Assembly (NCBI GenBank): GCA_034780895.1
Contig: JAUZTB010000069.1
Coordinates: 20,291,035-20,355,034, forward strand
DNA length: 64,000 bases
Direction: 5' to 3'
Source: Rhynchobatus australiae
Taxonomy: Eukaryota
The notes beneath the pieces are model-generated. The model searched no databases. It saw nothing but the letters and a program-made list of their open reading frames with translations, and was not told where the DNA came from. Shown here in pieces: positions 6,783 through 62,936 of the stretch (its first letter is position 1; each line of letters starts with the position of its first letter). The position numbers and the translations under genes were made by a program.

Positions 6783-7058
6783 AACAAAAGTTGCAGATAC
6801 TGGAAAACTGAAACAAAATGAAAGTTCAAGATGTTCTCAGCAGGTCAGGCAGCATCAATGGAGAGAGAAATAGAATCAACCTTTCAGGTCAAGACCCCTC
6901 ATCCTAATTGTTAAAGAGGATAATAACTTGATAATGAAAATAAAAGAGCTAGAAATCTGAAATAAAAATAGAAAATGCTGGAAACACTCAGCAGGTCAGG
7001 CAGTGTCTATAGAAAGAGAAACAGAATTTATATTTCGGGTTGAAGACCCTTCACCAGA
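6783..7058 (-). mobile_element. Two tandem Penelope-type terminal repeat (pLTR) fragments with degenerate hammerhead cores
   Basis: CTCAGCAGGTCAGGCAG...GAGAAA occurs twice; minus strand gives GATGAGGGGTCTTGACCTGAAAG and CTGGTGAAGGGTCTTCAACCCGAAA. Confidence 0.75.
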
Positions 7059-7074
7059 TGAACATTCCACAGAG

Positions 7075-7380
7075 ATCTGATCTGCAGTTCATAGCTTTTA
7101 CATCTCCCTTTGTTTGTGTTCTCTCTCTCCTCATTAACTGATCAACCAGTTGGCTTATCATCACAGTAACCATGGACTCACCCTGTCAAAAATATTCCCT
7201 TTGTTTCTATCCATCTCTCCCCTATCCTCGCTGCAACTTGAAACAAACTCACTGCAACAAAAGGTTTCTCTCTTCTGCAGTTCTGATGAGGGTTCTTTGC
7301 CCTGCGACAATAACTCTGTTGCTCTTTCCTTAGATGTTGTCTGACCTGCTGAGTGCTTCCAACATTTTCTGTTTTTGCTT
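7075..7380 (+). mobile_element. Non-coding spacer plus pLTR unit (family 2), inverted relative to the copies at 6783-7058
   Basis: CAGTTCTGATGAGGG at 7278-7292, followed by AACTCTGTT..AGATGTTGTCTGACCTGCTGAG; spacer aligns by eye with 28640-28800 (-). Confidence 0.7.
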
Positions 7381-7924
7381 AGCAAGACACATTTTCTAAT
7401 TGATTGTTGTTTAAGCATGAGAATTTGGAGCTATCTTTTGTCATTAGAAGAGCTGCATCAAAGATTACAATTAAATTAATCATCAGCTTCAGTCTCAAGA
7501 AATGAGTCAGTCAGAAAGGAGACCATTAGTTGGCAGAGAGGTACTGAATTCATCAAGATATAAAGTTGTTTTCACATGGAATTATCTTTATACATATACA
7601 TTTCAGTGCTGGCTTATTAGGGAGCTAATTATTAGCAGTATAAAAAGACCATATGATGTCTGAGATTTGGTTTGGAAACAGGAAAAGCAAATGTTAGACT
7701 GAATAATGAAAACATGCAATCATAACAGACGTGCAATAAATGGAATTAGAATAAGAACTACAACTTCCACACAATTTCCTTGTGACTGAAATTTTGCAAG
7801 GACCAGGGAATATTTGTTTGGGAGTGCATTTAGTATCTATCAGAACAATTCTAAACATCAAGACAAAATCATTAATTTTCTGACATATTATTGTGGAAGG
7901 CGCACACCTTCAACTAATTTTAAT

Positions 7925-8053
7925 TGAAAAGCAAATAAAGCTGCAGATATTGGGAACATGAAACAAAAAGAGAAAATGCTGAAAACACTCGAGTCAGGCA
8001 GCATCTTTGGAAAGAGAAACAGAGTTGACGTTTCAGGTCAATGATACTTCATA
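7925..8053 (-). mobile_element. Penelope-type pLTR fragment
   Basis: Minus strand TGACCTGAAACGTCAACTCTGTTTCTCTTTCCAAAGATGCTGCCTGAC; retains GAAACGTC. Confidence 0.75.
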
Positions 8054-10282: not shown

Positions 10283-10365
10283 TAAGCATTCAGCAGGTCA
10301 GGCAGCAACTGAGGAAAGAGAAAAGGGTTATTGTCTCAGGGCAAAGACCCCTCATCAGAACTGGG
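10283..10365 (-). mobile_element. Penelope-type pLTR fragment with CTGATGA core
   Basis: Minus strand CCCAGTTCTGATGAGGGGTCTTTGCCCTGAGACAATAAC...TGCTGCCTGACCTGCTGAATG. Confidence 0.75.
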
Positions 10366-28544: not shown

Positions 28545-28903
28545 AACACAAGGAACTAAAAGTTGATGCTGGAAACAGAGGTGACACTTAAGTTGAAGAC
28601 CCCTCATCAAAGCTGGGAAAAGGAGAAGACAAATTAGCTTTAATTGCAGAGAGAGTGGGGGAGAGATGGACAGGACGAAGGGAATAGGATGGGACCAGGA
28701 TTACCATAACCTGTTGTTGAAGTCACCTGGCTGATAGATTAGGGAGGGAATTTTGAGAGAGAGAAGAAAGGGGACAAGTTAAAACTGTGAAGCGTAGGCT
28801 GGAGCTGTTGCTGGAACCTGAAACCGAAAGGACAATGTCCATCAAGTCAGGCAGTGTCTGTGGAGAGAAATGTTACAGATGGATAACTTACATCTGAACT
28901 GGT
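28545..28903 (-). mobile_element. pLTR-spacer-pLTR non-coding unit (family 2)
   Basis: Two degenerate cores 286 nt apart (minus CAGATGT at 28896, TTGATGA at 28610), each followed by pLTR-like sequence; spacer similar to 7085-7200. Confidence 0.65.
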
Positions 28904-28932
28904 TCGTACCCACAGAAACAAAGAAAGTGAGT

Positions 28933-29529
28933 TAGAGACACAAGGAAATGCAGATGCTGGAGTGTGGAGCAAAAAATAAACTGCTGGAGGAACTCAATGG
29001 GTCAGGCGGCAGCTGTGGAGGGAAATGGACCGTTAATGTTTTAGGATGAGTCCCTTCATCCAGACTGAAAGACAGAGGGGAGATAGCCAGCAAAAAGAGC
29101 TGAGGGAAAGGGGTAAAGCAAGAGCTGGCAAGCGGATCCAGGTGAAGAGGGGTGTGAGGCAGATGGAGGAGGGAAGGGTGGAACTAGCCTGGGAGGTGAT
29201 AGGCGGAGGCAACAGAGGGCTGCAGATGATGGAATCTGAAAGCAAAGGACAGTGGAGCATGGAATGAAGTAAGGGAGGTGGGGTGGGAAGATGGGAACCG
29301 TTGNNNNNNNNNNNNNNNNNNNNNNNNNNNNNNNNNNNNNNNNNNNNNNNNNNNNNNNNNNNNNNNNNNNNNNNNNNNNNNNNNNNNNNNNNNNNNNNNN
29401 NNNNNNNNNNNNNNNNNNNNNNNNNNNNNNNNNNNNNNNNNNNNNNNNNNNNNNNNTACCTGAAATTGGAGAATTCAATGTTCAAGCCATTGGGTTGCAG
29501 ACTATCCAGACAGAATACAAGGTGCTGCT
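28933..29529 (-). mobile_element. Penelope-like element 3' end with full pLTR
   Basis: QHLVFCLDSLQPNGLNIEFSNFR at 29457-29528; pLTR CAGTCTGGATGAAGGGACTCATCCTAAAAC..CCGCCTGACCCATTGAGTTCCTCCAGCAG. Confidence 0.85.
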
Positions 29530-30087: not shown

Positions 30088-30117
30088 AGCTGTTCTGAGC
30101 TATTCCTAAAAAAAATG

Positions 30118-30390
30118 AGTTACCTGAAATTGTTGAATATTGGGTCTGGAAGGTCAGAGAGAAGATGAGGTGCTGTTCTTCAAACTTACACGGGGCCTGA
30201 TTGGAACAGTGCAAGAAGCCAGACAGATCAGTTGGAGTGGGAGTGGGATGGAGAATTAAAGTGACAGGCAACTGGAAGCTTGGGGTCACTCCTACTAACT
30301 GAATAAAATGCCCCACAAAGTTGTCTCACAATCTGCATTTGAGTCTTCTGTTTTCTGTTTTAATTTCAGGTTTCCACCATCTCCGTTTTG
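30118..30390 (-). mobile_element. Penelope-like GIY-YIG C-terminal fragment followed by an inverted pLTR tail
   Basis: ORF ..DLSGFLHCSNQAPCKFEEQHLIF..; plus-strand pLTR tail TTCTGTTTTAATTTCAGGTTTCCACCATC at 30352-30385. Confidence 0.75.
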
Positions 30391-31016: not shown

Positions 31017-33330
31017 TGTAGTATATATGGATATGCACGTACCTTTAAAAAAGATGGATACCATGTGATATGACTGTTGATGCATTGTTGTATCAGCCAC
31101 TGACTATTGACTACCTTGAATAAAGGATGTGATATTGATACAGCTCTCTCCTTGTTTCATGCTAAACAGAACAAATTATGGACTAAATTAGCTTAGACCT
31201 TGTTCTTTTGCTACTTAGGGAAGTAAAAGATCATTAATCAAGAGTGAAGGAAAACAAAACAGGGTTCGCTAGGCAGAACAGTGATTGTGGCAATCTGTGG
31301 ATGTGGTGGATATGTTGGTGAATTCGAGAATTACGAGAAATCTCAGCTATTTGGTCTGCATGTGGAAGGAGAGGAGATATTCTTGAGAACAAACAATATC
31401 ATTGATGTCCCGGGAGCGTATACAAAATGGAGGTACTCAGGCATATGCAAAAAGAGTAGGGTGATATTTTTGTTGGGAGTAGAGCCTGAGTTATGTAAGA
31501 TGTTGGTGAGTTTACTGACGCCAAGGACAAGGTCTTCGACCAGGGTGCTGTGGAAGCCTCGAAGAGAATTTTTAACTCATTCCTGTCAAGGAATCAGAAA
31601 CCAAAAGAATTGATTGTTGACGAGATAGTTAGGTGAGGAGATGCAATTTCAAGATCTTTCTTGGTTGGAAGATGGGGGATTATTTAGCCTGTGGGCTTGT
31701 TGATGAGAAAATCCAGACAGAACTTTTTGATACGGAGGGCTTTAACTTTACTGAGGGCATTTCTGTCATGGAAATAACAGAGGTTGGGTTGACTTGTGGC
31801 TCTGGAGGGCAGGTATTGGACAGACACCAGTGATGGTGATGCCTCCTTTGACCACAGTGTGTGCCACATAGTCACAGACAGTGACTTTGGTGGGAACTGC
31901 TTGGGTTACAAGGCCTGAGACAACTATGGCAGACAAAACAATGCTATTACATACAGAGTCAAAGACCATTGATGTATCAGATTTATTGGCAAGCTGGTGG
32001 GTTCTTGATATTTCACTACATTGAACCTGTCTCATAACGATGAGCAGATGCTTGTGGATTCAGGAGACCAGAAATAGTTCACTATTAATGTGCAACAGGA
32101 GTTGTATGCTTATACCAAGTTGCCGTACAGTGTTATGTTGGCTCCAAACATCCTTCAACACATTGCTGGACAAAATGCAGCAGGGAACAATGAGTTGTCT
32201 GTGTAACCAAGATGGCAAGCTCATTGCCTCTGAGACTGAACAGGTCGCCTGAGAAGATTTTGGGACAAGCACTTGGTAGGCTGCAGAACTACAAAGTGCG
32301 GCCAAGACAGAACAACCTGCATTCACACAGGCTGAAGGTGTTGATTTGGGATTCGGAATTAACAAGGATGGGCAGAGAACAGTCTGGGAGAAGGTGACAG
32401 CTGTGTTGGATGGTAGAGAGCCAACAAATGTTACTGAGCTTCACTCTTCCCTGGCACTGATTCAGTATCTTTTGAAAGTTTTACAGGATTCGGCTACCAG
32501 TTGAGTTCCCCTCGCAAGTTCTGAGGTGAGAAGCAATAATATTGCATAAGCTATGTAGAACAAAAAAATCACAATGAATCCTTCTCAGTCCACTGTCATT
32601 TATATAAATCATTACAGCTGTTATGTAATGTGGAGTGTGTGTGGTCTTCACCCATGTCATGGTATCAAGCAATGGACCACTACTTCTCACACCCTCACCT
32701 CCATGGAGAGGAATTACCAACAGATTGAAAAGAAGGCTCTGGCCATCATTTTTCAGAAGCTTCCCAAAGCTTCATTCTGGTCAGTCTATATTTCAGATCA
32801 TTAATCAACTGGGAAGGGAAAAAGAATAGGGTTCTCTTGTCTCTCCAGTGTCTGCCTGACCTGCTAGTGTTTCCAGCACTTTTTGTTTTTAATTTGAGAT
32901 CTCCAGCAGATGCAGTGTGAACAGGTGGCTTGCGCACTACCAGATTCACCTGCTGTAAACACTGAACCGATTGCACTGGTAGAGGCTGCAGTCTTCTTTG
33001 TAATTTTGACTACTTTCTATCTGACTTCAGTGAACATGTTATTAGAAGTTGAAATTATCCTTTCAGCCTTTGATGTAGTATTGTCAATATCAATGCTCAG
33101 GTGTCAGAGGAATAATATTTTGAGCTGTTTCAAACAGAGCAAGTAGTTAAGTGTATGGTTGGGAGAAACTGATGGTTTAGTACCAGTGGTCCAGTGTGTT
33201 CATAGTAAGGCTTTCATTGCTTCATGCCTGGATCTATTATGAGTTAACTAACAGTGTGATTGCTATGATTGGCCAACAATGCCTTTACACCACGTCTTCT
33301 TCATCTTGTGCCTATTCTCCAAGTCCGTTA
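31017..33330 (+). mobile_element. Highly decayed Gypsy (Mag-like) LTR retrotransposon: LTR remnant, gag, RT, RNase H, start of integrase
   Basis: gag GYVGEF..IFLRTNNI..VIFLLGV..LVSLLTP, RNQK, DYLACGLVDEKIQ; RT YTKLPYSVMLAP, LLDKMQQG..CNQDGKLI (YxDD position), EPTNVTELHSSLALIQY; RNase H SHTLTSMERNYQQIEKKALAIIF. Many stops and frameshifts. Confidence 0.8.
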
Positions 33331-34229
33331 GTCCGTGTTCTGTCCATTGGCGAGCACAATACAAAGCTCACAAGTTGACCTCAGGAAGATCCTAAATTGT
33401 ACTTGCCCATCCTCAGGTAGTGGTGCTGTGTGGCATACCTCACACCTCAGTAGCAGGTCTCAGGCATTGCACTTATCCAACTTAACCACATTGACTCCTG
33501 ATCATCTGAGTTAGGTACAGAAGTGGCCAAAGACCTTCCTGGTAGTCCATTCCTCATTTGCCCACAAGGAGCACCGAGCTTGCAGCCCTGGGAGCCTTTT
33601 GCACGGCATTCACCAAGCAATTATATCATGTGACCGGTCAGGATGAGAGAAGGGAAAATAATAGACATTATTTTCTCATCCAGAAATTTCATTGGCTAGA
33701 AATTGATCCTCAGTTACATGAGTTTAATGTGAGATACGATGCAATATCTTTGTTGTATTCTGCTATTGAAAGTTGGTTCCATTGACTTCAGTGGAATCAA
33801 ATGACAGAAGCAGAAAGCAATGCACATTCTCAGATGCCCCATTTAATACATATAACCTGGGATGAACTCCTACCCCTTTGTTCCTCACATCATATCTACT
33901 GGCAAGGCAGATTTTCAATGCTGTTGTAATTGAAAATAACAGAAGCTGTTCATGATTTCTGATTATTGATATTTTGTTACTGAAAATTTCGATCACAAGA
34001 TCAACAAAAGACCAGGCCATCAAAATGGACACACTAAATTAGGGTGAAAAGTAATTAATCTACTCAGTCTGAAGTGAAATTGAGTGAGAAAGAAGCTCAG
34101 GTGCTTTATGTTTTCACAGAAATACCTTTGAACTAGATCAACTGATGGTTATTCCAGTTTCCAATACTGAAAATATTACCATTCAAAATATCTGGCCTTC
34201 AGTAAAGCTATATCATTTATAGTTTTATT

Positions 34230-34343
34230 ATTCTGATTAAAGTTTATTGACCTGAAACTCTAACTTTATTTCCACATATTCTCCATCACCTGCTGTGTAT
34301 TTCTAACAGTTTCTGGTTTTATTTTACTTTCTTTGAGTGCAGC
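34230..34343 (+). mobile_element. Penelope-type pLTR fragment
   Basis: TTCTGATTAAAGTTTATTGACCTGAAACTCTAAC..ACCTGCTGTGTATTTCTAACAG. Confidence 0.6.
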
Positions 34344-41465: not shown

Positions 41466-42109
41466 GTTTTTCATTTCAGCATGATGCAGTTGATCTGTTC
41501 GCTTTCCTATATATGCGGACGGTAGGTATGTGTATGTATGAGGGAGGAAAAGAGTGGTGGGAGGATTTATTTCTTCTTCTTAAACCTCTTTTTTCCCATG
41601 TTTTTGTTCTTTTAAAATGTTATTCATAACTAATCTCACAATCAAAGATCCACACCCCAACATTAACAGAAGTTCTGTCTATGNNNNNNNNNNNNNNNNN
41701 NNNNNNNNNNNNNNNNNNNNNNNNNNNNNNNNNNNNNNNNNNNNNNNNNNNNNNNNNNNNNNNNNNNNNNNNNNNNNNNNNNNNNNNNNNNNNNNNNNNN
41801 NNNNNNNNNNNNNNNNNNNNNNNNNNNNNNNNNNNNNNNNNNNNNNNNNNNNNNNNNNNNNNNNNNNNNNNATGGATAGGGTTGATGAAGTTGGCCTGTA
41901 ACCTTGATCTGGTAGTGCCTGCAAATTGGAGACACCATAATGCCTCCCAAGCCTACTGACTAGTGGGTAGGCAGGACTTGTGCACCCTGAAGCATGAGTG
42001 GGTGAGTATCTCCTGGATCTATTCACTGCCCAATATTATGATCATTTCATATATCCAGTCCCTTAAGCTGGGTGACTCAATCCATTCTCTATCTCATCTA
42101 CCTTCATCT

Positions 42110-43055
42110 TAGGGGATAGGCTTGTGAACAATGTCCATTACAAGTCCCAAGACTCCCAAAGCTACACTCCTCCCACCAACTTTCTGTAAAGACTCCTCTC
42201 CATTCTCCTTGTATCTCCATCTCCTCTGTGTCTGTTATTTGTTCTGATGATGACGTTTTCCAGACTACTGCTTTCAAGAAGTTTTCCTTTTCCCTTAACC
42301 ATGCTTTCCCCTGCAATGTGTCTGACAGGGCTCTCAACTAGATATGCTCCATTTCCCATATTTCTGCTCTCACTCACCTCCTTCTACTGAGCAAGAAGAG
42401 TTGACCTTGTCCTCACCTTCCACACCACCAGCCTCTGCATTCAATGGATCATATCCTTAATTTCCACCACCTTCAACATGATGCCCCCACTAGACATATC
42501 TGCTTCTCCCTTTCAGTTTCAGAATTCTGATGGGACTGTACCTTCCATGACNNNNNNNNNNNNNNNNNNNNNNNNNNNNNNNNNNNNNNNNNNNNNNNNN
42601 NNNNNNNNNNNNNNNNNNNNNNNNNNNNNNNNNNNNNNNNNNNNNNNNNNNNNNNNNNNNNNNNNNNNNNNNNNNNNNNNNNNNNNNNNNNNNNNNNNNN
42701 NNNNNNNNNNNNNNNNNNNNNNNNNNNNNNNNNNNNNNNNNNNNNNNNNNNNNNNNNNNNNNNNNNNNNNNNNNNNNNNNNNNNNNNNNNNNNNNNNNNN
42801 NNNNNNNNNNNNNNNNNNNNNNNNNNNNNNNNNNNNNNNNNNNNNNNNNNNNNNNNNNNNNNNNNNNNNNNNNNNNNNNNNNNNNNNNNNNNNNNNNNNN
42901 NNNNNNNNNNNNNNNNNNNNNNNNNNNNNNNNNNNNNNNNNNNNNNNNNNNNNNNNNNNNNNNNNNNNNNNNNNNNNNNNNNNNNNNNNNNNNNNNNNNT
43001 GTTTCTTTTTTAGCATTTTAACCTTTTATTTCAGAATTTTAACATCTTCATTTTT
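42110..43055 (+). mobile_element. Penelope-like ORF fragment (RT C-terminus/linker), gap, pLTR tail
   Basis: SSH..FCKDS.PFS..LHLLC..ICSDDDVFQT....FSFSLNHAFP..VSDRALN; DLVLTFHTTSLCIQWII; FHHLQHDAPTRHI. Confidence 0.8.
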
Positions 43056-43358
43056 CTGTTGCTCACACTCCCAGTGTTATTTGACTCTCTCTCTCATTCT
43101 TCTCTCTCCTCATTGATTTCCTTCCGCCAACATCTCCTCAGACAGATCACGTGATTAACCGGACTTCACATCCCTCTCTCAGCTGGCAACATCACCATGT
43201 GGAGCACAGTCTCACCATCAGTTCCAGTGAAAGGTCAGTGACCTGAAACATTAACCATATGTCCTCTTCTACAGATGCTTCCTTACCTGCTGAGTATTTC
43301 CGGCACTTTCTGCTTTCATTTCAAATTTACAGCACCTGCAGCGTTTTTGCTTTTCATT
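43056..43358 (+). mobile_element. Spacer plus pLTR unit (family 1)
   Basis: Spacer CAGACAGATCACGTGATTAACC shared with 62063-62086; core CCAGTGA-A-AGGTC-AGT-GACCT-GAAAC at 43224-43249. Confidence 0.75.
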
Positions 43359-45267: not shown

Positions 45268-45355
45268 ACACAGAAAATGTTGAAGAACTCAGCCGGTCAA
45301 GCAGCATCTGTAGAAAGAGAAACCGGCTTAACTTTTGGGTCTGGGACCCTTCCCT
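45268..45355 (-). mobile_element. Penelope-type pLTR fragment
   Basis: CACAGAAAATGTTGAAGAACTCAGCCGGTCAAGCAGCATCTGTAGAAAGAGAAAC. Confidence 0.7.
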
Positions 45356-53734: not shown

Positions 53735-53885
53735 AAACACAGAACACTGTAAGAACCTCAGTGGCCAAGCAGCATCTGTGAAGACAAAAGGTATAAGCCG
53801 ATGTTTCAGGTTGACATCCTGCATCAGGACTGAGAGGGAACTGGAAAGAATTGGGAATTGATTGATGTGTATTGAAAGAGAAGTA
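53735..53885 (-). mobile_element. Penelope-type pLTR with hammerhead-like core
   Basis: Minus strand CAGTC-CTGATGC-AGGATGTCAACCT-GAAACATC-GGCT..CACAGATGCTGC. Confidence 0.75.
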
Positions 53886-54139: not shown

Positions 54140-55455
54140 ATTGGAGAAGGTGAAGAAGAGACTTATCAAAATCATTCCAGAGATGAGAGATTTTAGTTGT
54201 GTGGACAGAGTGGAGAAACTAGGGTTGGTCTCCAAGAGGAGGCTCCAAACAGATCCATTGCAGGTACTAGAATGAGAGAAGCTGTTCCCTTTGGCAGGAG
54301 GGGTCAAAACCTAATGGTCAGAGGATGAAAGTGATTGACAAAGGAATCAAAATTGATGAAGAAATATATTTTTACACTGTGAGTGGTTAAGCTCTGGAAT
54401 GCACTGCGACAGTTCTGGCAACCTGTTTTCCTATTTACTAAGCGTTTATTTTAAAAAATTTCATCCATTTATTTAATAAAGGCCTCAAAATTTCTTCTTT
54501 GTTTCTGATACAGTGTTCCTGTCTGAAAAATCATCTATTTTAAAGTAAGTCTCATCTTTCTTTTCCAGCAGAAATCTTAAATATATGTCTCTAATGAATG
54601 ACCCATTGAGGATATAAAATCACCTTTTGCTATTTAAATAAAGCTTTTAAGCATCACAATCAAATCTTTCCTTAAATATTTCTGCTCTAATGAAATAAGC
54701 CCGTTTCTCAGGTCTCTCAAGATGAATAATTTTTCATATCTCTGGCATCAACTCCTGTATCTTCTTCATGGTTTTGATATCTATCTTGAAGGAAAGATTC
54801 CAAAGTTCAACACAATTTTCTAGTTGTGACCCAATCAACAATTTACATAGATTTAGATCTCCCTTTTGTTCCATATTCTGTGCTTATGATATAATTTGCT
54901 TCTTTAGCCATTTGTCTTTTCAATATTTGTGCACTGGAATATTATCCTGCTGGAGGTTTTATTGGCTCATGTGTTTAAAGTGCTTCACCTCACACTTCTC
55001 TTCAAGGAAGTTCTTCAGATGTCTATGGGTCCACTTTATCAACCTGTCTATGACCTTCTTAAATTTGCTTCATAATTAGCCAAGTCCTTTCCTTTTGTGT
55101 CAGCTGCAAATGCATCTTACACCCAAGCACAGATTACTAATACATGCTGAGAAGAGCCATTGTGCTAATATCAATGCCTGGGGGATATCATTCCTCACAG
55201 AACACATAAGATCCATTAACCATTATTCTCAGTTTTCTGTTTTTTTTCAACTGTCTATCCAGGCTGCTGCCTTCTGCTGAACATTGTCTGCCTTTGTTTT
55301 ATCATATGCAGAAATAATCAATGTTTCTTTTGGAAATATAGAAGAGCCACTGAATTTCCTTCAATAATATATTCCATTACTCACTCAGAACTATTGAATT
55401 TGTCACACTATGTTTGTCTTTTACAATTCCTTGCCATCTATCCTTGATTAACCAA
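54140..55455. mobile_element. Old CR1 fragments: plus 54140-54407, minus 54500-55455
   Basis: LEKVKKRLIKIIPEMRDF..DRVEKLG and FTL.VVKLWNAL on plus; TTTTGTGTCAGCTGCAAA (minus FAADTK) at 55092-55110. Confidence 0.6.
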
Positions 55456-55459
55456 TTTC

Positions 55460-55790
55460 AAAACAGCAAATAAAAACCTGCAGAAGCTGGAAATCTGAAA
55501 TAAAAATAGAAAATTCTGGAAATACTCAGTAGGTCAGGCAGCATCTGTGGAAGAGAAACAGAGTCATCTTCCAGGTCAATAACCTTTCTTCAAAACTCAG
55601 AAAAGTCAGAAATTTAACACAGATTATAACTGAGAAAGTAGAGAACAAAGGGTGGATATTGTCTATGGTAGGGCGTATGTCCAAGAAAGACAGAATATCA
55701 CAAGAGGTTAGCTGGGAGAGCATGGTGTAGGCTCGTCTGTCTGCCAGAAAGATCAGCTCTGACAAACAAACCTTCACCACCCCCTTTCTG
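55460..55790 (-). mobile_element. Spacer plus pLTR unit (family 3)
   Basis: Full pLTR tail CTGCAGAAGCTGGAAATCTGAAATAAAAATAGAAAATTCTGGAAATACTCAGTAGGTCAGGCAGCATCTGTGG; spacer repeated in inverted form at 56196-56415. Confidence 0.8.
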
Positions 55791-55799
55791 CAAGCACCA

Positions 55800-56020
55800 A
55801 CACTATTTGCATTGTTCAGCGTATCCTGGCTTCTACCCTGTCATAGACAGTCCATTCATTCTCTCCACCCCTCCCCCTTCTTGCAATTTAAGGTTAAGCT
55901 TAAACATGCTTGCTTTCTGACTTGACCTGATAGAAGGATCAACAATGAAAACATTGACAGTCTTCCACTCCACAGATGCTGCTTGTCTTGCTGAGTATTT
56001 CCTGCATTTACTGCTTCTTG
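55800..56020 (+). mobile_element. Spacer plus pLTR unit, head-to-head with 55460-55790
   Basis: ACCCTGTCATAGACAG..TTCTCTCCACCCCTCC..CTGATAGAAGG..CCACAGATGCTGCTTGTCTTGCTGAGTATTTCC. Confidence 0.7.
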
Positions 56021-56195
56021 AAATATTAACTTTGATTTATATTATGGCCTCTGGAAACTTATCCTTCACAGTTGCATAAGAAAGGAACAAATAACTGGCA
56101 CTTGGATAATTCCTTTCTTAAGTCCTTCACCATTTGAAAAAAACACCTTTGAACTTAAGTTATAGGAATGCAGTCAGCCAATTTTCAGACACAAA

Positions 56196-56415
56196 GTGGC
56201 TGGTGAATTCTTGTTAGTCAAAGCTGATCTTTCTGGCAGACAGACATGCCTTCATCATGCTCTGTCAGCTAGCGTCATCACCTCTTGTGATATTCAGTCT
56301 TTCTTGGACATACACCCTGCCACAGACGGTTCCTTTGTTCTCTCCACCCCTCCACCTTCTCTGTTACAAACTGTGTTGCATTTTTGACTCTTCTTAGTTT
56401 TGATGAAAGATTATG
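56196..56415 (+). mobile_element. Family 3 unit, inverted copy of 55590-55790
   Basis: AGCTGATCTTTCTGGCAGACAGAC and ACCTCTTGTGATATTC.GTCTTTCTTGGACATAC are reverse complements of 55675-55758. Confidence 0.85.
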
Positions 56416-56544: not shown

Positions 56545-56830
56545 TTGGTTAATTGTCCACTGTAAATTGCCCCTAGAGTATAGGTGAGTATAACGTGATG
56601 GGAATGTGGAGAGACTAAAATGGGATCAGTGGAGTGAATGACAACAGTCCACTTCCCTCCACAGATGCCGCCTGACCCGTTGAGTTCCTCAGGCAATTTG
56701 TTGCTCCAGATTCCAGCATTTTCAGTCTCTTGTGTCTCCACTTGTGCAGTGTAAATGGGTGCTTGACACTCAGTGTGGACTTGGGGTTAAAGTGCCTGTT
56801 TCCATGCTGCTTGCCATGATTCTATGACTC
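56545..56830 (+). mobile_element. V-SINE 3' half, itself interrupted by a pLTR at 56640-56742
   Basis: GGTTAATTGTCCACTGTAAATTGCCCCTAG and CR1-type tail GCCTGTTTCCATGCTG..TTCTATGACTC; insert CCACAGATGCCGCCTGACCCGTTGAGTTCCTC. Confidence 0.75.
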
Positions 56831-61859: not shown

Positions 61860-62936
61860 GGGACACTGATGAAATATCATTGACCTGAAATGTTAACTCT
61901 GCTTCTCTCTTCACAGATGTTGTCTGAGTTGCTGGGTATTTCTTGCAATCTCTTTTATTGCAGGCTTTGGAATCTGCGGTGTTCTGTATCTCACACTTCC
62001 AGCCTTATCTTTTCTTCTCTCTCTCATCTCTCCTCATTGGTTTCCTTCCACTAACATCTCTCCAGACAGATCACAGGTGATTAACCAGACCTCACCTCCT
62101 TCTCTCAGTTGGCAGTGACATCATTTGCATCACAGTCTCTCCTGGTCACCACCCTGTCACCAATATCCCCTGGCAACAAACAAAATGCTGGAGGAATTCG
62201 GGGGTTGAGCAGTGTCTGTGGAGGAAAATAGACAGTTTGGGGTCTAGACTCGCTGGCAAGTGACAGGTGGATTCAAGTGAGGAAGGGTGATAGGGCAGAT
62301 GGAGGAGGGAAGAGTGGAAATAGCGACNNNNNNNNNNNNNNNNNNNNNNNNNNNNNNNNNNNNNNNNNNNNNNNNNNNNNNNNNNNNNNNNNNNNNNNNN
62401 NNNNNNNNNNNNNNNNNNNNNNNNNNNNNNNNNNNNNNNNNNNNNNNNNNNNNNNNNNNNNNNNNNNNNNNNNNNNNNNNNNNNNNNNNNNNNNNNNNNN
62501 NNNNNNNNNNNNNNNNNNNNNNNNNNNNNNNNNNNNNNNNNNNNNNNNNNNNNNNNNNCCCTGGGGGGGGGGCCGGGGGTGAGTGCAGGAAGAACTGGGG
62601 GGATCAGGAGGAGAGAAAATAGAGACAAGGGACAGAGGGGGAGCAGCTTACCTGAAACTGGAGAACTCAATATTCATACTGTCCGGTTGTTAACTACCCA
62701 GGTTTTCCTCCTCTATTTTGTTTGTTGCTCCAGATTCCAGCACCTGCAGTCTCTTACATCACTACTAAAATCCCCTTTATTCGATCCACCCCTTCACCAT
62801 CCATTCTGATGGAAGGTCACCGACCTGAAACATTAACCCTGTTTCTCTCCCCATATATGCTGACTGACCTGCTGAGCATTGCTGGCACTTTCTGTTCTTA
62901 TTTCAGATTTCCAGCATTTGCAGAGTGTCACTTTTG
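61860..62936 (+). mobile_element. pLTR-spacer-pLTR unit (family 1), interrupted by a Penelope-like insertion
   Basis: Cores CTGATGA..GACCT-GAAA at 61866-61890 and CTGATGG-A-AGGTC-ACC-GACCT-GAAAC at 62806-62831; each followed by the pLTR tail; spacer shared with 43056-43200. Confidence 0.8.
62172..62769 (-). mobile_element. Penelope-like 3' fragment with inverted pLTR tail and flanking ATCCCCT duplication
   Basis: ORF end QPDSMNIEFSSFR* at 62648-62690; GCAACAAACAAAAT (62173-62186) inverted at 62715-62728; ATCCCCT at 62165-62171 and 62770-62776. Confidence 0.8.

What the first reader, a model, noticed from the sequence alone, without database searches (positions are those of the whole stretch)
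61860..62936. Retrozyme-like unit: hammerhead-pLTR / spacer / hammerhead-pLTR, about 335 nt monomer, recurring 19 kb away
Seen: two direct copies of a hammerhead-core repeat (61866 and 62806) enclose a non-coding spacer. Removing the later 605-bp insertion leaves 335 nt core to core. The same spacer (CTCACAC..TCCTCATTG.TTTCCTTCC..CAGACAGATCAC..GTGATTAACC..TCTCTCAG.TGGCA) lies between a pLTR tail and a second core at 43056-43358. Known: Penelope-like elements carry minimal type I hammerheads in their pLTRs, and small non-coding hammerhead repeats (non-LTR retrozymes) in some animals yield circular RNAs. Inference: this is a dispersed non-autonomous family mobilised by the local Penelope RT/GIY-YIG, whose transcript could self-cleave to a unit-length RNA. 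I do not know whether it has been described in elasmobranchs. Both copies here carry core or stem mutations and are probably dead.
Basis: partly seen in the sequence, partly recalled or inferred. Interest (0 to 1): 0.72.

Follow-up and report, generated by a model that had tools for sequence, protein, structure and literature searches.

The report
Penelope element tail with doubled hammerhead
The two ribozyme motifs and the spacer between them are real and recur across the genome, but they are the worn tail end of an old Penelope-like jumping gene whose tail carries its ribozyme motif twice, the first copy usually mutated, so the unit likely never worked as a free circular-RNA retrozyme.

Summary
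The repeat pair, spacer, 605-bp insertion and 335-nt arithmetic are confirmed, and the spacer is a dispersed family (165 exact 17-mer hits). It is not an ORF-less unit. In 26 of 70 motif-anchored loci the end of a Penelope GIY-YIG reading frame lies directly upstream, and the window's second copy has about 475 nt of Penelope ORF before its N run. Layout: ORF stop, 20-nt palindrome, core 1, tail, spacer, core 2, tail. 5' ends are staggered, with no pile-up at the cleavage site (3 of 70). Core 1 mostly carries A13U (32 of 42), core 2 keeps A13 (45 of 52), so double cleavage to a monomer is unlikely. Spacing is 319-398 nt (majority sequence 375); 335 reflects a deletion. One head-to-tail dimer was seen in 70 loci, no arrays. 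The two window copies are a local sister pair; all three visible cores are broken in core or stem I. Verdict: an old Neptune-like PLE subfamily with a fixed duplicated hammerhead/pLTR, not a retrozyme by published criteria. The scan noted similar PLE stubs, including double-core ones, on other DNA. Residual interest: a possible one-way double hammerhead or retrozyme precursor.

The parts
61866..61901 (+). Left minimal-hammerhead core (core 1 position); catalytic nucleotides intact, stem I 5' arm absent, stem II damaged; the copy's 5' boundary falls at its first base
61902..61995 (+). Rest of first pLTR copy and its subfamily-specific tail
61996..62171 (+). Pyrimidine-rich spacer = subfamily 3' UTR
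62172..62776 (-). Later insertion: 3' stub of another Penelope family with GIY-YIG C-terminus at about 62654-62737, short inverted arms, decayed 14-nt duplication (62158-62171 / 62763-62776); N run 62328-62558
62777..62805 (+). Shortened linker before core 2 (about 40 nt lost against the family majority)
62806..62936 (+). Core 2 (A9G), pLTR and long tail = 3' end of the insertion
42076..42550 (+). Decayed Penelope ORF (RT thumb to linker region) directly upstream of the second copy
   Evidence: 59% over 359 nt to the RT part of L135, E 6e-11; 65-74% to family ORF DNA
43007..43358 (+). Second copy: tail 1, spacer with about 100-nt deletion, core 2 at 43226 (U4C/G5A/A6G) and tail; its core 1 position falls in the N run 42552-42999
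55450..56414 (.).

Best explanation
The unit is the 3' end of an old Penelope-like (probably Neptune-type) retrotransposon subfamily whose untranslated tail carries two hammerhead/pLTR copies, and it likely spread as ordinary 5'-truncated copies made by the element's own reverse transcriptase and GIY-YIG endonuclease. Shown: order ORF stop / 35-nt linker ending in a 20-nt palindrome / core 1 + tail / spacer / linker / core 2 + tail; staggered 5' ends; some 5' inversions; short and long 3' ends; A13U in core 1. [quoted passage not shown] Inferred: unit-length RNA was not released, because cleavage at site 2 in a cis double hammerhead needs core 1. The two window copies are sisters, likely by a local RNA-mediated re-insertion or gene conversion.
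For: ORF end upstream in 26 of 70 loci, 0 of 70 downstream, 0 of 70 reversed control; anchored alignment also gives 26 of 70, 21 of them at least 97 nt into the ORF. The frame of L059 is 42% identical over 88 aa, E 4e-16, to the C-terminal part of L135, whose same frame carries a YIDD RT motif across an N run; a related natural frame (L108) hits GIY-YIG clusters at 0.95 in the atlas. Window copy 2 has ORF upstream. 5' ends: 3 of 70 in the 20 nt around site 1, against 18 in the next 89 nt. Position 13: core 1 T32/A3/other 7, core 2 A45/T1/other 6; independent genome pattern GTAA 15 of 18. Palindrome pairs at p about 0.96 over stem I and CUG of core 1. Inverted 5' pieces in 9 of 70. Tandem-order pattern 1 hit (false, L147) against 29 in normal order. 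Palindromes at pLTR 5' ends, tails and inverted copies are described for PLEs.
Against: 44 of 70 loci do not reach the ORF, so a co-existing ORF-less template is not excluded by count alone. 17 of the 26 ORF-reaching loci went into the majority sequence used as query (they were picked with a model from other loci); among the other 53 only 9 reach the ORF. Pfam did not name the ORF fragments. No full-length copy of this subfamily was found: locus flanks were 1.5-4 kb and N runs are frequent. A minority keeps GAAA in core 1 (3 of 18; L090, L145), and the window's left core is one of them. One head-to-tail dimer exists (L071, weak piece scores 15-28 bits).
Confidence: 0.85

Rival explanations
1. 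Non-autonomous non-LTR retrozyme: both cores cleave as a dimer, a unit RNA circularises and is re-integrated in trans by the Penelope enzyme.
For: Dispersed family with two cores 319-398 nt apart, in the size range of animal retrozymes and near the 363-bp chondrichthyan mean; one dimer L071; minority GAAA core 1; window copy 1 starts at core 1 and has a core-2-like left core.
Against: ORF upstream in 26 of 70; no cleavage-site pile-up; A13U in most core 1 copies; no direct second spacer found by profile search in 69 loci; tandem-order pattern 0 true hits against 29; sequence upstream of the window's left core does not match linker 2 (p=0.17); circular monomer of the in-script majority folds no better than shuffles, z=+1.0; cores are minimal, not canonical.
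Confidence: 0.06
2. One-way double hammerhead kept for a reason: core 1 is a catalytically dead partner strand that lets core 2 cut once, at site 1 just behind the stop codon, while site 2 near the RT start stays uncut.
For: Both lesions (A13U and the hairpin over stem I/CUG) hit only the core 1 to site 2 reaction; core 1 keeps the CpG-decay pattern at 15.2/16.2 and the 3' arm of stem I; all needed pairs are nested and Watson-Crick.
Against: The one-way fold is 9 kcal/mol above the minimum-energy fold; no 5' pile-up at site 1; minimal HHRs cleave weakly in vitro and HHR mutants do not affect PAc insertion in vitro; one master mutation explains A13U without selection.
Confidence: 0.07
3. Chance juxtaposition of two unrelated solo pLTR stubs around an ordinary UTR fragment.
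For: pLTR stubs are very abundant (about 15 in the window).
Against: The same core 1 / tail / spacer / core 2 order, with the same palindrome and A13U, recurs in dozens of loci.
Confidence: 0.02

Closest known systems
Endonuclease-bearing Penelope-like elements, Neptune/Nematis type, with partial-tandem pLTRs (PMC8557442, passages; PMC3846280, passages)
   Same: C-terminal GIY-YIG ORF end, Cys-rich linker motif remnants, 5' truncation, inverted 5' copies, palindrome at the pLTR 5' end, optional 3' tail.
   Different: The second pLTR/HHR is not a per-insertion accident: it sits between stop codon and 3' UTR in the master and was amplified with it. The younger family in this genome has one core after its UTR.
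[quoted passage not shown]
   Same: Type I, short stem I, unpaired base after A9, 5-bp stem II, palindromic CG at 15.2/16.2, no stem III loop.
   Different: Direct pair about 375 nt apart on one strand (the paper reports pairs about 3 kb apart in direct, or 100-700 bp in opposite orientation); upstream core mostly A13U.
Non-LTR retrozymes (Cervera and De la Pena 2020, PMC7229834, passages; Li et al. 2026, 10.64898/2026.07.22.740005, parts 1-3 of 5 read)
   Same: Type I HHR motifs a few hundred nt apart, low GC, PLE-derived pLTR sequence.
   Different: Tied to the ORF end, not in tandem arrays, no complete HHR in consecutive units, minimal rather than canonical cores, no stable self-paired circle predicted, expression not shown.
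PAc Poseidon element of Anolis (PMC11167929; parts 1-2 of 4 read)
   Same: Two 3' end classes fit internal RT start sites; endonuclease cutting near the ORF-pLTR junction offers a route to the duplication.
   Different: Different clade; no second HHR in the UTR described in the parts read.

Membership tests
Non-LTR retrozyme | Tandem repeat with at least two consecutive units, each with a complete type I HHR | tested here: not met
   One decayed dimer (L071) in 70 loci; tandem-order pattern 0 true hits vs 29 normal; core 1 A13U in 32 of 42
Non-LTR retrozyme | Non-coding, independent of the PLE ORF | tested here: not met
   ORF end colinear upstream in 26 of 70 loci and in window copy 2
Non-LTR retrozyme | Unit of about 150-450 nt, GC under 50% | tested here: met
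   319-398 nt; majority unit 375 nt, 43% GC
Non-LTR retrozyme | Highly self-paired circular RNA | tested here: not met
   Circular fold -44.8 vs -49.2 +/- 4.5 kcal/mol for 60 shuffles, on an in-script majority sequence
Non-LTR retrozyme | Self-cleavage and expression as linear/circular monomer RNA | not testable with these tools
   Needs cleavage assay and RNase R / divergent RT-PCR
EN+ Penelope-like element | ORF with C-terminal GIY-YIG endonuclease | tested here: met
   Pfam itself gave no hit on the fragments
EN+ Penelope-like element | Telomerase-like RT in the same ORF | tested here: inconclusive
   Thumb-region DNA in window copy 2 matches the RT part of the younger L135; no full-length copy of this subfamily recovered
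EN+ Penelope-like element | pLTR with minimal HHR, optional tail, inverted 5' copies | tested here: met
Neptune/Nematis clade | CX2-5CxxC linker between RT and EN | tested here: inconclusive
   Complete in the younger L137; first two cysteines kept in 1 of 7 old copies checked, L094; no RT tree built

The most novel reading that the evidence does not exclude
A Penelope lineage that built its hammerhead's dimer partner into its own 3' UTR: core 1 went catalytically dead (A13U plus a blocking hairpin) while staying a substrate, giving a one-way double hammerhead; the same layout, by slippage between the two repeats (dimer L071) and in the GAAA minority, is a frozen early step in the birth of a non-LTR retrozyme from a PLE.
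Probability: 0.13. Interest if true: 0.55.

Novelty: new variant of a known kind. Interest (0 to 1): 0.24.

Why it matters
Mostly ordinary: a dead retrotransposon subfamily. It warns that two hammerheads a few hundred bases apart are not enough to call a retrozyme; the upstream flank must be checked for a PLE ORF end. If the two-core tail did cleave one way, it would give a natural cis construct for the open question of what PLE minimal hammerheads do, and a concrete intermediate for the proposed PLE origin of animal retrozymes.

Tried and rejected
Rfam scan: no hammerhead family at E<=1; five low-complexity matches elsewhere. Pfam on ORF fragments: no relevant hit. Circle or tandem junction as origin of the window's left core: upstream sequence matches neither linker (p=0.50 and 0.17). 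Target-site duplication around window copy 1: best match no better than random (171 of 300). Segmental duplication of the two window copies: no flank similarity up or down. A dispersed subfamily with the window pair's private changes: only the two window copies match exactly, 5 more at one mismatch against 3 in the control; BLAST with copy 2 finds only copy 1 over the spacer among 40 scored of 1779 candidates. L147 as a tandem: false, another family's end plus a chance 12-mer. Sequencing runs: no RNA holder listed; contigs of three runs laid on two N-free stretches showed no joint from core 2 back to core 1 and no empty insertion site, which is no evidence either way. Lenient pairwise core tallies were dropped for the thresholded ones. 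The full double-hammerhead energy (-65.8) included one non-canonical forced pair and is not relied on. Copy number is poorly fixed: about 600 (8 of 30 BLAST loci hold the exact 17-mer) to about 10,000; 0 spacer hits in 337 kb of unselected flank. Literature searches for this layout in sharks or rays found no description; Repbase/Dfam and subscription papers were not searchable, and the supplements of the 2026 preprint, which hold its chondrichthyan families, were not seen and may include this family.

Full report
Observation. The window holds two direct copies of a hammerhead-type core at 61866 and 62806 (73% over 94 nt) and a spacer that recurs at 43023-43216 (76% over 198 nt). The insertion spans 62172-62776, 605 bp with one copy of a decayed 14-nt duplication (11 of 14 identical), and removing it leaves 335 nt core to core. 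It is a minus-strand 3' stub of another Penelope family. Rfam found no hammerhead; the motif matches the minimal PLE hammerhead described in PMC4209133: short stem I, extra base after A9, palindromic 15.2/16.2.

The family. BLAST with the spacer gave 40 matches at 69-86% apart from itself. An exact spacer 17-mer has 165 hits, control 0, and none of the 100 listed lie within a unit length of each other. I took 70 of the first 71 listed hits as an anchored sample (L045-L114; the skipped one was already held as L012). Copies are about 78% identical to their majority sequence, so the family is old.

What lies upstream. Alignments showed a conserved frame ending just before core 1. It carries a YYI..C..CGLLYIGET GIY-YIG-type motif in the majority translation. 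A natural copy (L059) is 42% identical over 88 aa to the C-terminal part of the younger element L135, whose frame also holds a YIDD RT motif across an N run. A related natural frame hits GIY-YIG clusters in the atlas at 0.95, with the Pfam family on 17-31% of members; Pfam scans of the fragments gave nothing relevant. The ORF end lies upstream in 26 of 70 loci, 0 of 70 downstream, 0 of 70 in the reversed control; 17 of these fed the majority query, and 9 of the other 53 also reach it. An anchored alignment gives the same 26. The window's second copy has decayed ORF at 42076-42550, directly before the N run that hides its core 1. Downstream of core 2 the copies end at a short or a long tail and run into unrelated flank (24 loci displayed). 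So the unit is a PLE 3' UTR, preceded and not followed by the ORF.

How copies were made. 5' ends are staggered: 21 deep in the ORF, 5 in its last 97 nt, 4 in the linker, 4 in the first half of core 1, 3 around cleavage site 1, 18 in tail 1 and 15 in the spacer (local ends are approximate and 10 adjoin N runs). There is no peak at the cleavage site, which a cleaved or circular template would predict. Nine of 70 have an inverted piece at the 5' end, as described for PLE insertions.

The two cores are unequal. Among 95 loci (70 plus 25 BLAST loci, after dropping the two window copies and three duplicates), position 13 of core 1 is T in 32 of 42 scorable copies and A in 3; in core 2 it is A in 45 of 52. 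A genome-wide pattern anchored on the linker gives GTAA in 15 of 18. A13 belongs to the consensus core used to accept or reject hammerheads in PMC3088659 (passages); that A13U abolishes cleavage is established knowledge recalled, not tested here. A 20-nt palindrome pairs over stem I and the CUG of core 1 with probability about 0.96 in a local fold. Palindromes at pLTR 5' ends are known. In a cis double hammerhead each core cuts the other's site (inferred from the dimer model), so site 2 would stay uncut and no monomer would be freed. Core spacing is 319-398, median 348 (n=28), majority 375; 335 is this copy's value after a deletion of about 40 nt.

Tandems. A profile search found no direct second spacer in 69 loci, only three inverted ones. 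By eye and by a more lenient search L071 is one decayed head-to-tail dimer behind an ORF end. A genome pattern for the tandem order gave one hit, false on inspection, against 29 for the normal order. The would-be circle is 68% pyrimidine and folds no better than shuffles, unlike the self-paired circles reported for retrozymes.

The window pair. The two copies form a supported pair in a tree of 81 spacers (99/95; few columns, bootstrap not settled) and share private changes, but share no flank, and no third copy carries their private pattern exactly. The recurrence 19 kb away is thus a local event, by re-insertion or gene conversion (not resolved). Copy 1 starts at the first base of its left core, which keeps GAAA like a minority of the family (L090, L145) but lacks stem I; the right core is A9G and the core at 43226 has three core changes. 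A third, fold-back locus of the family lies at 55450-56414.

Comparison and verdict. It works like a standard endonuclease-bearing PLE and meets the PLE features that could be tested. It fails the retrozyme criteria of Li et al. 2026 (two consecutive units with complete HHRs) and of PMC7229834. That preprint already reports retrozymes in one chondrichthyan and proposes birth from PLE ends; its supplements were not seen. PMC7229834 mentions PLEs with minimal HHR copies in tandem in axolotl (passage). My searches found no description of a fixed two-core 3' UTR with a dead upstream core. Earlier notes of this scan reached PLE-stub verdicts on other DNA, including double-core one-offs; I had reached my reading before seeing them. 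The variant is real but dead: interest 0.24. The bold reading, a one-way double hammerhead and retrozyme precursor, is not excluded (0.13), but the needed fold is 9 kcal/mol above the minimum and HHR cleavage is dispensable for PAc insertion in vitro.

Noticed in passing
window 55450-56414: Fold-back stub of the same 3' UTR family plus an inverted partial repeat with the same two breakpoints; a second case of local re-copying in this window.
   Followed up: partly
L071 (G000:C2:78245477-78248493): Decayed head-to-tail dimer of spacer-linker-core 2-tail behind an ORF end and an inverted ORF piece; the only tandem seen.
   Followed up: partly
L145 1404-1939 (minus-oriented) and L090: Copies with GAAA in core 1 and a longer first tail resembling the second; possibly the older form of the duplication.
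   Followed up: partly
window 4355 minus strand: A different hammerhead-like string (CUGAUGA ... GAAA-GC-UC) with a palindromic 15.2/16.2 but no clear stems I or II; may be a decayed end of another PLE clade or chance.
   Followed up: no
window 6790-8050, 10285-10363, 28833-29066, 32829-34317, 45269-45352, 53738-53831, 56643-56700: About a dozen further solo or inverted pLTR stubs; PLE ORF ends at 29459-29527 and 30113-30340 (minus).
   Followed up: no
whole window: Three loci of this family in 64 kb against none in 337 kb of unselected flank, so the window is locally enriched.
   Followed up: partly
L116-L140: A much younger and very abundant PLE family (42,278 first-look candidates) with a single core after a 300-nt pyrimidine UTR.
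   Followed up: partly
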